Below the pieces are notes generated by a model, which was given only the letters and a program-made list of their open reading frames with translations, searched no databases and was not told the DNA's origin. From the NCBI GenBank assembly GCA_965207735.1, contig OZ242296.1, forward strand, positions 1,664,001-1,728,000: a DNA stretch of 64,000 nucleotides, read 5' to 3'. This DNA comes from Candidatus Versatilivorator sp. (GTDB taxonomy: Bacteria > Acidobacteriota > Terriglobia > Versatilivoradales > Versatilivoraceae). Positions within the stretch are counted from its first letter, which is position 1; each line of letters begins with the position of its first letter. Position numbers and translations under genes: made by a program. Positions 7,111-12,079 of this stretch are shown piece after piece.

Positions 7111-7269
7111 TCAACACCTTGGAATGAGAATAAGCACTATGGCCTCAGCCAAATTCTCGCGTGCTTCCTCACTGGTCTTGCCTTGACCGTTGGCTCCGGG
7201 AATTTCAGGGCAGTAGGCAATATACCATTCCCCATCCTGCTCAATAATCGCCGTGAATTCGTTTTTCAT
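7111..7269 (-). pseudogene. hicB: HicB-family antitoxin, C-terminally truncated; no hicA partner
   Basis: From ATG 7269: MKNEFTAIIEQDGEWYIAYCPEIPGANGQGKTSEEARENLAEAIVLIL, then an abrupt IPRC*. It runs into the end of the convergent amidohydrolase. Confidence 0.75.
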
Positions 7270-7315
7270 CGAAAACCTTTCTTGGAGACCATTGCGCTCC
7301 AAGACGAAATTTTGA

Positions 7316-7378
7316 GAGTTCGACGTCAACTTCCGCAACGTAGCTTCCTTCGTGAACAAGCTTCGTCCGTTTTTTCTT
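7316..7378 (-). pseudogene. Internal fragment of a small TA-associated protein (KRTKLVHEGSYVAEVDVEL)
   Basis: Read manually on the minus strand. It matches my recollection of a small family (TKLVHEGxYVAEVDVEL...) usually encoded next to DUF4258-type genes. No start codon and no C-terminus. Confidence 0.45.
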
Positions 7379-7409
7379 ACAGGATACTGGCATCAATCAA
7401 AACCGCCAC
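7377..7409 (-). pseudogene. 10-codon stub of a VapC/PIN toxin (MAVLIDASIL*)
   Basis: GTG start overlaps the end of the Phd antitoxin. hhhDxShh is the first PIN strand, and TAA follows immediately. Confidence 0.65.
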
Positions 7410-7681
7410 GGGTCGTGGACCTCCGCACGAGCGAGCACCTGCCGAGCCTCGGTGAGGTCGTCTGCAAACTGGGTGGCTTCGGTTGGGGATAGATGGGGAA
7501 GTGACGCCAATAGCGCGGAGATTTCCACCAGTCGTTTCCCCGCAGGAAGCGGGCGCAGTTCCGCCACGGGTTTATTGCCACGCACGAGCACAAAACATTC
7601 GCCACGACAGGAAACGCGGTTGATGTACTCGGCGAAGTGACGAGCAGCTTCAGTAACAGTGACAGAGAGTGTATGCGCCAT
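7397..7681 (-). CDS. Phd/YefM-family antitoxin
   Basis: VTVTEAARHFAEYINRV...FVLVRGNKPVAELRP...DPW; RBS GGAGG. Confidence 0.85.
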   Translation of the reverse strand: MAHTLSVTVTEAARHFAEYINRVSCRGECFVLVRGNKPVAELRPLPAGKRLVEISALLASLPHLSPTEATQFADDLTEARQVLARAEVHDPWRF

Positions 7682-7705
7682 CGGAGATCCTCCGCGAAAA
7701 CCTGA

Positions 7706-7739
7706 GAATCATATTGTCGGATTCCCCGCCCGATGTCTA
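7706..7739 (-). promoter_or_regulatory. Putative sigma70 promoter and operator of the Phd gene
   Basis: Minus strand TAGACA-17 nt-CAATAT (TATGAT overlapping). Inverted repeat GAATC-N9-GATTC lies across the -10. Confidence 0.45.
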
Positions 7740-7880
7740 CTGTCTCCCGATTATCATGGCTCGGACTGCGGTTGGAAATGGAAATCGCTTGAAAATTGAT
7801 TGGGATTCTGAAGGATAAATGTCCGACTTGGCGGTCGTCCTGTCGGTGTAACCCTTGGGGGGTAAGCGTGGAGCGTGGAA

Positions 7881-8168
7881 TTAGGGGACGTAGCCCCATT
7901 TGCGGAAGGTGGCTTGGAGTTGCGAGTCATCTCGAAACGCCTGATAGTAGATATATTCTGGCGCCAAGTCTGTTCCGTTAGGCCACACGATTGTCTGAAG
8001 TTCTTCGTCCAACCGCAACTTCCTGAACAGGTCCGGCTCCTTCAGCGACTCGAACAGGGGCCCCTCAAGTGCTTCCGCCAGATCCGCAATTCCTTCACGT
8101 CCGTTGCCGAAGCACACCTCCACCCTGTAGCCTTCGAGTGGTTTTGCACCTGTTACATGAAGAAACAC
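7881..8168 (-). CDS. DUF2442-family protein (putative antitoxin)
   Basis: MFLHVTGAKPLEGYRVEVCFGNG...GPLFESLKEPDLF...TIVWPNGTDLAPEYIY. Confidence 0.85.
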   Translation of the reverse strand: MFLHVTGAKPLEGYRVEVCFGNGREGIADLAEALEGPLFESLKEPDLFRKLRLDEELQTIVWPNGTDLAPEYIYYQAFRDDSQLQATFRKWGYVP

Positions 8169-8172
8169 TGAG

Positions 8173-9704: not shown

Positions 9705-9947
9705 GCGGAACTCGAGAAAGTTGGTGAGAATCAGATTCGGAAAGGTGGAGCGATAGCGCTTGAGCTGTTCGGAATGCTCGATCAGGTCCAGCCGCTCTTC
9801 GGTCGGTTTCTTGGCCTCAACGTAGCCGACAATGCCGTCCTTGCCGTTCCAGAGACGGAAATCCGGGTTTCCACCCTCGGTGGGCTTGGGAAGTGTGGTG
9901 ACGTGTACGTGCGCCCTGCCGGTTTCTTTGGCTATGCCGCCCAGCAT
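9705..9947 (-). pseudogene. Fragment of the N-terminal nuclease domain of a type ISP/IIG restriction-modification enzyme
   Basis: VTTLPKPTEGGNPDFRLWNG..IVGYVEAKKP...SEQLKRYRSTFPNLILTNFLEFR (PD-ExK plus QxxRY). Similarity stops abruptly after FLEFR. Confidence 0.7.
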
Positions 9948-10051
9948 TTTCCTAACGCAACTGTGAGAGTCACACCGAGTACGGTGGCAACTGCTGTCAA
10001 CAGACCAACAGCCAGCTTTACGTCAATGGACTCGTCAAGCAGTACGTGCAT
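9932..10051 (-). pseudogene. DUF5615/PIN-like toxin stub (MHVLLDESI) fused to an unrelated hydrophobic fragment
   Basis: ATG 10051 overlaps the DUF433 end. MxxLLDE is the usual start of the DUF433 partner toxin. The frame continues as DVKLAVGLLTAVATVLGVTLTVALGKCWAA*. Confidence 0.6.
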
Positions 10052-10253
10052 TCGTGCTGAGGGCCTTTCGCGCCATCTCTATGACGGCGATCGCCCTGGC
10101 GCGCTCAACGGCAGGGAAATCGAGCAGGAATTGATCGAGGGTCTCACCAGTTTCCAGATAGTCAAAGAGGTTCTTAACAGGAACCCGAGTCCCAGTGAAA
10201 ACCGGCAAACCACCCTGAATCGCAGGATCTTTGTGAACAGCTTGCTCTTCCAT
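10035..10253 (-). CDS. DUF433-family antitoxin
   Basis: VHKDPAIQGGLPVFTGTRVPVKNLFDYLETGETLDQFLLDFP. Confidence 0.9.
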   Translation of the reverse strand: MEEQAVHKDPAIQGGLPVFTGTRVPVKNLFDYLETGETLDQFLLDFPAVERARAIAVIEMARKALSTNARTA

Positions 10254-10299
10254 CCTATTCCTCTCCTATTTCTGCTTTAAGGCATTGTCTCTGACTCAT

Positions 10300-10476
10300 T
10301 CATGAGCGGACACGGTGCCCCATCTCTCTATCGGATATCACACGGCCTTCTCGGGAATCCATAAGACCACGCTCCACCATACGTTCGAACGCAAGTTCAC
10401 GCAGGATTTCCTCATAGGTCGCATCATCCGGCTGCGAATCAGTGACTTCCTTCGTTTTCTCTTTCACTATCGCCAT
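10300..10476 (-). CDS. 58-aa putative antitoxin of a RelE/ParE module; toxin absent
   Basis: Below the ORF-track cutoff. Reads MAIVKEKTKEVTDSQPDDATYEEILRELAFERMVERGLMDSREGRVISDREMGHRVRS*. I recognise the PDDATYEEI...ERGL.D...GRVIS pattern from antitoxins that precede ParE/RelE toxins. Confidence 0.65.
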   Translation of the reverse strand: MAIVKEKTKEVTDSQPDDATYEEILRELAFERMVERGLMDSREGRVISDREMGHRVRS

Positions 10477-10553
10477 GGACTCTTTCCTTCACTTGAGGCA
10501 AACAGATTCTCAAACAACCGCTGAGCTTGGAACCCCTCCTGAACAACCCGGGC

Positions 10554-11786
10554 CTATTTCTTCCCGGCGGCTTCGGTAGCTGACTGGGGACGGCCGGAGA
10601 CGTCGCCACCGAGCCAGCGGTAGGGACGCGGATAGAGGGCCAGGGAGCGGTCCTCCAGCGGCAGCTTGACGGGTACGCTACCCAACTGGGCCGAGATCTT
10701 GCTGGCGATGGCCACTTCCAGGGCGTGGCGCTGGGTCTCGCCGGTGATACGGGGCGGAATCCCCTTGGCCACGGCGTCGATCAGGCAGCTGATGGGAGCC
10801 AGAACGTAATGCCGCTCCGACCCATGGTGGCCGATTCGATCCAATAAGGGCGACAGATCCTTGGACACCGAGTCCCAGGACCAGGGCCGGTAGCCGTGGT
10901 CCACTTCCTTGCGCGCACCCTTGGCGTCGAACCCCTTAAAGATCTGGGTCAGGGGCTCGCCATGGCGGTCCCATCTCACCAGCGCATCCTCCGTCCAGAC
11001 TTCCACCCCCCGATGGGGAGCCACCGCCTCTGCGCCGAAGACCTGGCACTCCAACCCGGAGGTCAGCCGGAAACGGCCGTTGATGCTCAGTCCATAGTCA
11101 GTGGCAGCGTCATCAAGCGCCTCGGGCGGGGTTCCCCAGGTGATGACTTCCTCCACCCGGGCCTGGGTGAAGTGCTCCAGAACCAGGATGCGGGCCGATC
11201 CGCCGGCCAGGATTTCGCCGCGGTAACTGTGAACCGCCACCCCCTGGCGCTTCCCCAGCTCTCCCGAGGCCAGTCGTCTGCCGGCCTCCTCCACCTCCCA
11301 ATTGGACCGTTCCAGGGCACCGCCGGCCAGCACCGTCCCGCGCTGCTTGCAGGTCTCGATCATGCGGTCGGCGTCGGACAACTTGGCGGCAAAGGGCCGG
11401 TCGGTCTGAACTCCCTTGACTCCCGCCTCGGCGCAGGCCACCACGCCGTCCGTCATGTATTTGGTAGGGGTGATGATGGCCGCCAGGTCGGGGACCACCT
11501 CTTTCAGCAGGGCGTCGGCGTCCCGGTAGAGAGCCTTCACTCCGAAGCGCTCCCCCACCACCTTGCGCCGCTCGGGATTCCATTCCGCGATAGCCACCAG
11601 ATCGGTCTGGGGGAGAGCCCGGTAAATCTCGGCGTATTGCTGGCCCAGGCGGCCGCAGCCGATGACGGCCACGCTCAGCCTGTCCTTTGACGCTGCGCCG
11701 GAAGCCCTGCGAGGATAGAGCCCGCCGGCCGCTACTGCTGCCGATACGGATTGAATGAGGAAATCCCTTCTGTTCACCGTGTTCAT
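10554..11786 (-). CDS. Tat-exported Gfo/Idh/MocA oxidoreductase
   Basis: NRRDFL Tat motif; VAVIGCGRLG Rossmann motif; TDRP in place of EKP. Paralog of 52839..54074. Confidence 0.9.
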   Translation of the reverse strand: MNTVNRRDFLIQSVSAAVAAGGLYPRRASGAASKDRLSVAVIGCGRLGQQYAEIYRALPQTDLVAIAEWNPERRKVVGERFGVKALYRDADALLKEVVPDLAAIITPTKYMTDGVVACAEAGVKGVQTDRPFAAKLSDADRMIETCKQRGTVLAGGALERSNWEVEEAGRRLASGELGKRQGVAVHSYRGEILAGGSARILVLEHFTQARVEEVITWGTPPEALDDAATDYGLSINGRFRLTSGLECQVFGAEAVAPHRGVEVWTEDALVRWDRHGEPLTQIFKGFDAKGARKEVDHGYRPWSWDSVSKDLSPLLDRIGHHGSERHYVLAPISCLIDAVAKGIPPRITGETQRHALEVAIASKISAQLGSVPVKLPLEDRSLALYPRPYRWLGGDVSGRPQSATEAAGKK

Positions 11787-11815
11787 GCTTTCCGCTCCTC
11801 CAGAGTTTCTGCCGG

Positions 11816-12079
11816 TTACCCGGGCTTGGATGGGTTCGACCCCGGCCCGTGAGTTCTCTTTGGGCCTAGGCCAGTCGTCAAGATATCTCCCCGAATCCTG
11901 ATCTTGTGTCGCAGGCTGCCGATCAGGTCGGCATGCTGCCGGTCATCATGCTGCCGGTCATAAGGAACAACGTGCGCGACCGGCTTGCCGTGCCTGGTGA
12001 CGATCAAGCCGTCAGCGTCAAGCTGGTCCAACAAGTCCAGGCACTGCTCCTTGAACTTTGCAGCTCCAATCGTTCGCAT
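11816..12079 (-). CDS. Phd/YefM-family antitoxin, orphan, with altered C-terminus
   Basis: MRTIGAAKFKEQCLDLLDQL...LIVTRHGKPVAHVVP; no toxin gene downstream; 15-bp tandem duplication at 11932-11961. Confidence 0.8.
   Translation of the reverse strand: MRTIGAAKFKEQCLDLLDQLDADGLIVTRHGKPVAHVVPYDRQHDDRQHADLIGSLRHKIRIRGDILTTGLGPKRTHGPGSNPSKPG

What the first reader, a model, noticed from the sequence alone, without database searches (positions are those of the whole stretch)
7111..12079. Co-oriented array of orphan antitoxins whose toxins are cut to stubs: candidate antidote library
Seen in sequence: within about 5 kb, all on the minus strand, lie antitoxin-type genes of six families: HicB, Phd (two), DUF2442, DUF433, a ParE-partner type and HigA. 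For six of the seven genes the toxin is missing, and the breakpoints fall at the antitoxin/toxin boundary. The PIN stub is MAVLIDASIL*, the DUF4160 stub is IDPLE* and the DUF5615 stub is MHVLLDESI. The ParE-type toxin is lost at its overlapping ATG, and the HicB and second Phd genes end in foreign tails where the toxin would begin. Only higBA is complete. Established: chromosomal antitoxins can neutralise toxins of incoming elements (anti-addiction), and losing an antitoxin first is lethal. Inference: this is either a serial-capture hot spot kept as a multi-family immunity cassette, analogous to orphan immunity gene arrays, or a TA graveyard shaped by that asymmetry.
Basis: partly seen in the sequence, partly recalled or inferred. 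Interest (0 to 1): 0.8.

Follow-up and report, generated by a model that had tools for sequence, protein, structure and literature searches.

The report
Eroding toxin-antitoxin hotspot, toxins lost first
This stretch is a cluster of bacterial toxin-antitoxin gene pairs whose toxin genes have been cut to stubs while related species still carry most of the same pairs whole at the same place, so it is most likely a decaying island rather than a purpose-built antidote library.

Summary
The stubs are real, match toxin ends in relatives, and are not a misassembly. The 'antidote library' reading is not supported. Between the same two core genes, 13 congeners carry the same modules in largely the same order. 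Five of the six lost toxins are intact there in at least one genome, and the sixth (DUF5615) is longer. So the antitoxins arrived in whole operons and lost their toxins by independent deletions. They then decay: 23 of 58 unpaired copies are broken against 0 of 11 paired. Their pN/pS is 0.39, against 0.13 when paired and 0.45 when already broken. In this window HicB, Phd2 and the ParE partner are themselves clipped, and two stubs of an eighth, antitoxin-position gene were missed. Orphans occur genome-wide. This matches published toxin-first erosion of TA spots (PMC13617665). One signal is unexplained: 21 of 29 breakpoints lie within 75 nt of the antitoxin/toxin junction (best neutral model p about 2e-4). 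A 2.5-kb tract was also recently exchanged between populations. Antitoxin-keeping alleles may therefore be favoured as the only ones able to replace addictive pairs (about 20%). The scan's index showed no earlier such finding.

The parts
6095..7087 (+). Amidohydrolase, conserved flank of the spot
   Evidence: Pfam PF04909; found beside the variable region in 12 of 13 congeners, G003's contig ends before it
7111..7269 (-). HicB/UPF0150 antitoxin truncated at codon 48 of 71 (break after 7125); HicA deleted
   Evidence: intact HicB-HicA in G002 and G006
7317..7379 (-). Dead 5' stub (about 21 codons, start codon lost) of the 71-aa DUF4258-partner gene, copy 2
   Evidence: full gene beside an intact DUF4258 toxin in G004
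7377..7409 (-). PIN (VapC-like) toxin stub, 10 codons then stop; junction shared with G004
   Evidence: intact 137-aa PIN in G002, G009, G011
7397..7681 (-). Phd/YefM antitoxin 1, full-length orphan (77-82 identical residues against 92-aa paired copies)
7881..8168 (-). DUF2442 antitoxin, full-length orphan, GTG start (84 of 95 identical to the paired copy in G012)
8173..8210 (-). DUF4160 (DhiT-like) toxin 3' stub
   Evidence: intact toxin in G012
8225..8740 (-). AIG2-like gamma-glutamylcyclotransferase gene, intact; not a TA gene
   Evidence: Pfam PF13772/PF06094; intact in 7 of 8 genomes that have it
8820..8850 (-). Dead 3' stub of the DUF4258-partner gene, copy 1
8885..9175 (-). HigA-type HTH antitoxin, paired
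9182..9517 (-). HigB/RelE-type toxin, intact; the higBA module (8868-9573) lies at 6 different sites in 9 of 14 genomes
9574..9705 (.). Short foreign filler, not found in the 13 congeners
9706..9955 (-). Internal fragment (nt 97-344 of 3162) of a Type ISP restriction-modification gene
   Evidence: full-length in G008, G011, G013
9956..10027 (.). Short foreign filler, not found in the 13 congeners
10028..10051 (-). DUF5615 (PIN-like) toxin 5' stub, 8 codons
   Evidence: longer, also truncated, in G009 and G011
10035..10253 (-). DUF433 antitoxin, full-length orphan
10300..10476 (-). ParE-partner antitoxin (no Pfam family), last 3 of 61 residues lost; ParE cut right after its ATG (break after 10301, 2-nt microhomology)
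   Evidence: intact pair in G003, G005
10554..11786 (-). Gfo/Idh/MocA oxidoreductase, core gene and the other flank of the main spot
   Evidence: present in 14 of 14 genomes
11816..12079 (-). Phd/YefM antitoxin 2; last 8 codons and its PIN toxin removed by one deletion at a 5-nt microhomology (11868-11872) shared by 10 genomes
   Evidence: intact Phd-PIN at the same place in G005
7360..9835 (.). Tract almost identical between this genome and populations in other studies (1 difference in 2476 nt against 99 in 2481 nt of flanks): inferred recent homologous exchange

Best explanation
This is a variable chromosomal spot where whole type II toxin-antitoxin operons and a restriction-modification gene once stood in a row and are being eroded by short-homology deletions, most likely toxin first because losing the antitoxin first would kill the cell. 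Shown: the same modules stand intact at this site in congeners; each lineage has its own breakpoints with 0-7 nt of microhomology; no intact toxin without its antitoxin was seen; unpaired antitoxins then collect stops and truncations; alleles of the spot are mosaics between lineages. Inferred: addiction sets the order of loss; orphans linger under relaxed selection and are on their way out; homologous recombination shuffles part-eroded alleles among lineages; higBA is a recent arrival.
For:: interval present in 13 congeners, under 1 to about 26 kb long; intact ParE (G003, G005), DUF4258 (G004), DUF4160 (G012), PIN (G002, G009, G011), HicA (G002, G006), Phd2's PIN (G005), RM gene (G008, G011, G013). 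Different stub lengths per lineage: ParE 3, 23, 35, 58 nt; PIN 21, 30, 34, 140, 233 nt. Intermediate states with toxin killed by a stop or frameshift: ParE G007, HicA G003, DUF4160 G005, DUF4258 G006. Lesions in 23 of 58 unpaired antitoxin copies vs 0 of 11 paired, p=0.012 (copies are not independent). Private-change pN/pS: core 0.12 (150 syn/53 non), paired 0.13 (24/10), full-length orphans 0.39 (92/114), broken 0.45 (31/45); orphan vs paired p=0.006, orphan vs broken p=0.59. Genome-wide: 9 of 17 Phd genes in this genome lack an intact toxin, 7 of 15 outside this locus. 25 of 25 small PIN toxins examined (26 of 34 hits were listed; one is a long PIN-domain protein) have an adjacent antitoxin-sized ORF. 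At 12 other DUF433 loci in four relatives only 2 have an intact toxin. HigB is deleted in 4 and internally deleted in 1 of 8 other higBA copies. Same pattern published for Photorhabdus: toxin-only decay 185, both 186, antitoxin-only 8 (PMC13617665, parts 2-5 of 8 read).
Against: Breakpoints hug the antitoxin/toxin junction: 21 of 29 events within 75 nt, against 7.3-11.0 expected under three simple neutral models (best p=2e-4; 16 of 24, p=0.004 after merging possibly shared events). Stubs are a median 0.16 of toxin length (KS p=2e-5). Orphan pN/pS stays well below 1 (0.39; 0.32 in junction-sharing pairs), and in that pair test orphans vs paired antitoxins was not significant (p=0.15). 5' ends of antitoxin-first genes are kept in all copies seen. 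Contigs from RNA run X16 cover Phd1, HigA and the ParE partner (weak, DNA not excluded). DUF5615 is not intact at this site in any of 14 genomes.
Confidence: 0.62

Rival explanations
1. Orphan antitoxins are kept for a long while because alleles that retain them are the only ones that can replace an intact, addictive allele by homologous recombination, or survive transient entry of congener DNA carrying the cognate toxin. The array would be a multi-antitoxin 'cure' allele made by deletion, not by capture.
For: Breakpoint clustering. Recent exchange of a 2.5-kb tract. Mosaic alleles: the PIN junction is shared with G004, not with the sister G002. Cognate toxins are intact in congeners at this and other sites. 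Orphans are 82-95% identical to paired copies over the part kept. Chromosomal RM systems resist allelic replacement (PMC3874152, passages read).
Against: 23 of 58 unpaired copies are broken; pN/pS equals that of broken copies. The exchanged tract also carries an intact higBA that could drive it selfishly. This genome's HicB and Phd2 are clipped. No toxin above about 40% identity in PLSDB plasmids (2 queried), none in IMG/VR (2 queried), none above 37% full-length in its own genome; those collections may lack this group's elements.
Confidence: 0.22
2. The orphans are kept as repressors: their N-terminal DNA-binding domains silence left-over TA promoters or now set expression of downstream genes (Phd2 upstream of Gfo).
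For: 5' ends are kept while C-terminal tails are clipped. In 6 genomes the clipped Phd2 ORF runs to a stop overlapping the Gfo start.
Against: Phd2 is stopped in G010 and deleted in G007 with Gfo intact. DUF2442 has lost the promoter end of its operon. The promoter scan was at chance level.
Confidence: 0.09
3. A serial-capture cassette that acquires antitoxin genes without their toxins and is maintained as an immunity library, like rAID orphan-immunity arrays.
For: Co-orientation, six families in 5 kb, modules mobile within the genus, two short foreign fillers.
Against: Intact operons in largely the same order in congeners; toxins seen in intermediate states of decay. No tyrosine recombinase within about 129 kb, no repeat family at cassette ends, no tRNA gene in the window. 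Orphans are common elsewhere in the genome.
Confidence: 0.06
4. Misassembly or chimera.
For: Mosaic look of the region.
Against: X1 one contig, 0 differences; X7 one contig across all junctions from 6799; X3 and X10 long contigs across them; junctions shared with other genomes.
Confidence: 0.01

Closest known systems
Eroding type II TA spots of Photorhabdus (Belot et al. 2026, PMC13617665; abstract and parts 2-5 of 8 read)
   Same: TA modules cluster in a small interval between core genes, high turnover, two-step decay with toxin first, islets without mobility genes proposed to spread by homologous recombination at flanks.
   Different: Here up to nine modules share one spot, and toxins are cut to very short stubs hugging the antitoxin; I saw no breakpoint-position analysis in the parts read. 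Addiction was tested there, not here.
Anti-addiction modules and decay: ccd of Erwinia chrysanthemi, ccdO157 of E. coli (as reviewed in PMC2654758, passages read)
   Same: Chromosomal antitoxins closely related to intact toxins elsewhere; later decay.
   Different: No cognate toxin on a plasmid or phage was found; the cognate toxins known are chromosomal in congeners; neutralisation untested.
rAID orphan-immunity arrays of gut Bacteroidales (PMC12247911, abstract read)
   Same: Row of protective genes without their toxins.
   Different: No associated recombinase, genes came with their toxins, many are broken, and type II toxins act inside the cell rather than being injected.
Orphan antitoxins in Klebsiella and E. 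coli surveys (PMC7192599, PMC10790755; passages read); solitary methyltransferase 'vaccination' and RM resistance to allelic replacement (PMC3874152, passages read)
   Same: Orphan antitoxins are common, often in the context of the original pair; anti-addiction or regulatory roles are proposed but untested.
   Different: Here the step-wise origin is traced allele by allele at one locus across 14 genomes.

Membership tests
Eroding TA spot (Belot et al. 2026) | Several type II TA modules in one interval between core genes | tested here: met
Eroding TA spot (Belot et al. 2026) | High gene turnover across congeners | tested here: met
   Interval under 1 to about 26 kb with different content in 13 congeners
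Eroding TA spot (Belot et al. 2026) | Toxin lost before antitoxin | tested here: met
   58 unpaired antitoxin copies and no intact toxin without its antitoxin at the locus; 25 of 25 small PINs paired
Eroding TA spot (Belot et al. 2026) | Antitoxin decays afterwards | tested here: met
   23 of 58 vs 0 of 11; pN/pS 0.39 vs 0.13
Eroding TA spot (Belot et al. 2026) | Intact modules are toxic and addictive | not testable with these tools
   Needs kill-rescue and plasmid-stability assays
rAID/integron-like capture array | Associated site-specific recombinase | tested here: not met
   Nearest PF00589 hit about 129 kb away
rAID/integron-like capture array | Repeated recombination sites at cassette ends (feature recalled, not from a call) | tested here: not met
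   No convincing repeat family in 6900-12400; junctions have 0-7 nt microhomology
rAID/integron-like capture array | Protective genes acquired without their toxins | tested here: not met
   Five of six lost toxins intact at the same site in congeners
Anti-addiction module | Close cognate toxin on an incoming mobile element | tested here: inconclusive
   None in PLSDB or IMG/VR for the toxins queried; modules do move within the genus
Anti-addiction module | Antitoxin expressed | tested here: inconclusive
   RNA-run contigs cover Phd1 and the ParE partner in X16 only; DNA not excluded
Anti-addiction module | Antitoxin maintained by purifying selection | tested here: inconclusive
   pN/pS relaxed and like broken copies, yet breakpoints avoid most of the antitoxin
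Anti-addiction module | Neutralises the cognate toxin in trans | not testable with these tools
   Needs co-expression

The most novel reading that the evidence does not exclude
In this freely recombining genus, toxin-deleted alleles that keep many antitoxins are selected as 'cure' alleles. They alone can overwrite an intact addictive TA array by homologous recombination without killing the recipient. Deletions therefore trim toxins right up to the antitoxin and stop, building multi-family antidote alleles by subtraction that sweep between populations.
Probability: 0.2. Interest if true: 0.72.

Novelty: new member of a known kind. Interest (0 to 1): 0.36.

Why it matters
As it stands, this is a well-resolved example of how chromosomal TA islands die, with intact, point-mutated, stub and fully lost states side by side in 14 genomes. 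It also supplies true cognate toxin-antitoxin pairs for several families (DUF4160/DUF2442, DUF4258 with an unnamed partner, ParE with an unnamed partner). That makes the old question of whether orphan antitoxins do anything directly testable. If the breakpoint clustering reflects selection on alleles during recombination, it would extend anti-addiction from plasmids to allelic competition on chromosomes.

Tried and rejected
Repeat search for cassette sites: only chance-level pairs. Promoter/terminator scan: at shuffle level. Metagenome scan with a flank motif: one unrelated locus, L072, matching only the amidohydrolase. IMG/VR with PIN and DUF4160: no relative. PLSDB with PIN and ParE: best about 40%. 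Own genome with seven intact toxins: best full-length 25-37%, so no internal orphan toxin to neutralise. ESM Atlas for the two Pfam-less partners: hypothetical clusters only; PipX 0.77 and RelB3_C 0.84 are leads under the 0.9 line. pN/pS below 1 was rejected as proof of present selection: the dead DUF4258-partner stub differs from X7 by 4 synonymous and 0 non-synonymous changes, dead junction-sharing fragments give 0.28 (9/9), and broken RM and toxin classes give 0.23-0.26. Recombination and pre-break history keep the ratio low. Lack of RNA-contig cover over DUF2442, DUF433 and the cyclotransferase is not evidence of silence. The direction of the tract exchange could not be resolved. No structure or complex prediction was run. 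The scan's own index gave nothing relevant. Paper searches showed no listing describing breakpoint clustering at antitoxin ends; that is a limited, word-based look, and the supplements of PMC13617665 were not read.
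Full report
Observation. The window is part of a complete 5.26-Mb genome, G000. GC falls to 52-59% over 7001-10500 against 59-67% in flanking genes. 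The region is real: run X1 holds 6600-12400 in one contig without differences (it may be the source), X7 holds 6799-12400 in one contig, and X3 and X10 cross the junctions in long contigs. Corrections: HicB is cut at codon 48 of 71; Phd2 lacks its last 8 codons; the ParE partner lacks its last 3. The span also holds an intact cyclotransferase gene, a 250-nt piece of a Type ISP restriction-modification gene and two dead stubs of an eighth gene, the partner of a DUF4258 toxin. Only DUF433, DUF2442 and Phd1 are full-length orphans.

The locus in relatives. All 13 same-genus genomes have Gfo, and 12 show the amidohydrolase flank (G003's contig ends first; G007's interval is split over two contigs). 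The interval runs from under 1 to about 26 kb. Mapping module genes on them gives a common order: ParE partner-ParE, DUF433-DUF5615, RM gene, DUF4258-partner, cyclotransferase, DUF4160-DUF2442, Phd-PIN, HicB-HicA, with a second Phd-PIN upstream of Gfo. Intact toxins stand at the site in G003 and G005 (ParE), G004 (DUF4258), G012 (DUF4160), G002, G009 and G011 (PIN), G002 and G006 (HicA; G007 runs off its contig), and G005 (partner of Phd2). DUF5615 is truncated in all three genomes that have any of it. G001 has unrelated ABC-transporter genes there. So the antitoxins came in whole operons. DUF433-PIN was predicted as a TA pair in PMC2701414 and DUF4160/DUF2442 was validated as DhiTA in PMC8198452 (passages read).

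Breakpoints. Stub lengths differ between lineages (ParE 3, 23, 35, 58 nt; PIN 21, 30, 34, 140, 233 nt), and four toxins are full-length but stopped or frameshifted. Junctions carry 0-7 nt of microhomology: 2 nt at ParE, 1 at PIN, none at HicB, 5 at Phd2, 7 at the G009 ParE junction. The Phd2 deletion is one event shared by 10 genomes. Alleles are mosaics: G000 shares its PIN junction and a 6-nt duplication with G004, while its sister on the Gfo tree is G002. Against run X7 it has 1 difference in 7360-9835 (2476 nt) but 99 in 2481 nt of flanks; X14 agrees. I infer recent homologous exchange; its direction is unresolved.

Fate of the orphans. Counting every antitoxin copy at the locus, 23 of 58 unpaired copies carry a stop, frameshift, lost start or truncation, against 0 of 11 paired (p=0.012). 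The shared Phd2 tail loss and the 3-residue loss were not counted; without Phd2 it is 21 of 47 vs 0 of 10. Copies share ancestry, so these p values overstate. Private substitutions give pN/pS 0.12 for core genes, 0.13 for paired antitoxins, 0.39 for full-length orphans and 0.45 for broken ones (G001 and G011 were left out of the core set). Pairs that share a toxin-deleting junction give 0.32, paired antitoxins 0.18 (p=0.15), dead fragments 0.28 on few sites. A ratio below 1 is not proof of selection here, since dead pieces show it too.

Not special to this site. Of 17 Phd genes in G000, 8 have an intact toxin, 2 a frameshifted one and 7 a stub or none (read by eye). All 25 small PIN genes examined have an adjacent antitoxin-sized ORF (26 of 34 hits were listed). 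At 12 other DUF433 loci in G002, G008, G009 and G013, 2 have an intact toxin and most have short stubs. At 9 other DUF2442 loci 3 do. The higBA module lies at 6 sites in 9 of 14 genomes; HigB is intact in 4, deleted in 4 and internally deleted in 1. Phd-PIN, HicBA and the DUF4258 partner also occur at other sites. No recombinase lies within about 129 kb, and there is no cassette repeat and no tRNA.

What decay does not explain. I listed 29 breakpoint events at antitoxin/toxin junctions, shared ones counted once and a few positions read by eye. 21 lie within 75 nt of the junction; a cut uniform in the toxin predicts 7.3, uniform over both genes 8.2, and one further neutral cut 11.0 (p=2e-4). 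Windows of 50 and 100 nt agree (p=0.001, 0.002), and merging possibly shared events leaves 16 of 24 (p=0.004). Stubs are a median 0.16 of toxin length. The window was chosen after seeing the data and no non-TA control was run, so a deletion bias towards gene boundaries remains possible. Otherwise antitoxin genes resist deletion for some time after the toxin is gone.

Mechanism. Most likely (0.62): addiction forbids losing the antitoxin first (established principle, as in PMC13617665 and PMC2654758), deletions remove toxins, orphans linger and decay, and recombination shuffles the alleles. Next (0.22): alleles keeping antitoxins are favoured because only they can overwrite intact addictive alleles. 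Chromosomal RM systems resist such replacement (PMC3874152, passages). Cognate toxins are intact in congeners, and the orphans remain 82-95% identical to paired copies over the part kept. Against this stand the many broken orphans, the intact higBA in the exchanged tract, and no close toxin on plasmids or phages in the collections searched. Expression is open: contigs of one RNA run labelled sponge metagenome (X16) cover Phd1, HigA and the ParE partner at about 95-98%, and X20 covers a piece of HigB, but contigs cannot show transcription.

Verdict. A new, unusually well-resolved member of a known kind, the eroding TA spot; not a member of the recombinase-linked orphan-immunity arrays. Interest 0.36, carried by the breakpoint clustering and the ready cognate pairs for testing orphan antitoxins.

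Noticed in passing
window 8868-9573; L057-L064: The roughly 700-nt higBA unit (promoter plus two genes, 78-92% identical) lies at 6 different sites in 9 of 14 genomes; how it moves is unknown.
   Followed up: partly
L016:3492-3704 and L013:3768-3950: Two small families with no Pfam or NCBIfam hit sit in antitoxin position: a 71-aa partner of DUF4258 and a 61-aa partner of ParE; ESM Atlas shows only hypothetical clusters.
   Followed up: partly
G000 genome-wide: 39 tyrosine-recombinase matches, most in ORFs of about 400-450 aa with similar scores, suggesting an expanded mobile family.
   Followed up: no
L062, L063, L064 (other higBA sites); upstream of Phd2 in L017, L022: A short repeated element, present in many copies in G000, sits where HigB was in G003, G007 and G008 and near other TA remnants; it may seed deletions.
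   Followed up: no
window 11786-12079 and congeners: After the shared deletion the Phd2 frame runs to a stop overlapping the Gfo start codon in 6 genomes; G000 and G009 stop earlier.
   Followed up: partly
window 8225-8740: AIG2-like cyclotransferase gene travels in the TA/RM spot and is intact in 7 of 8 genomes (pN/pS 0.36); possible defence link untested.
   Followed up: no
L020-L021 (G009): The DUF2442-Phd-PIN unit is duplicated on both sides of an insert of about 17 kb with resolvase, transposases, a cold-shock gene and further TA genes.
   Followed up: no
window 4998-7087: Two tandem amidohydrolase paralogues, about 78% identical in DNA, conserved in the genus.
   Followed up: no
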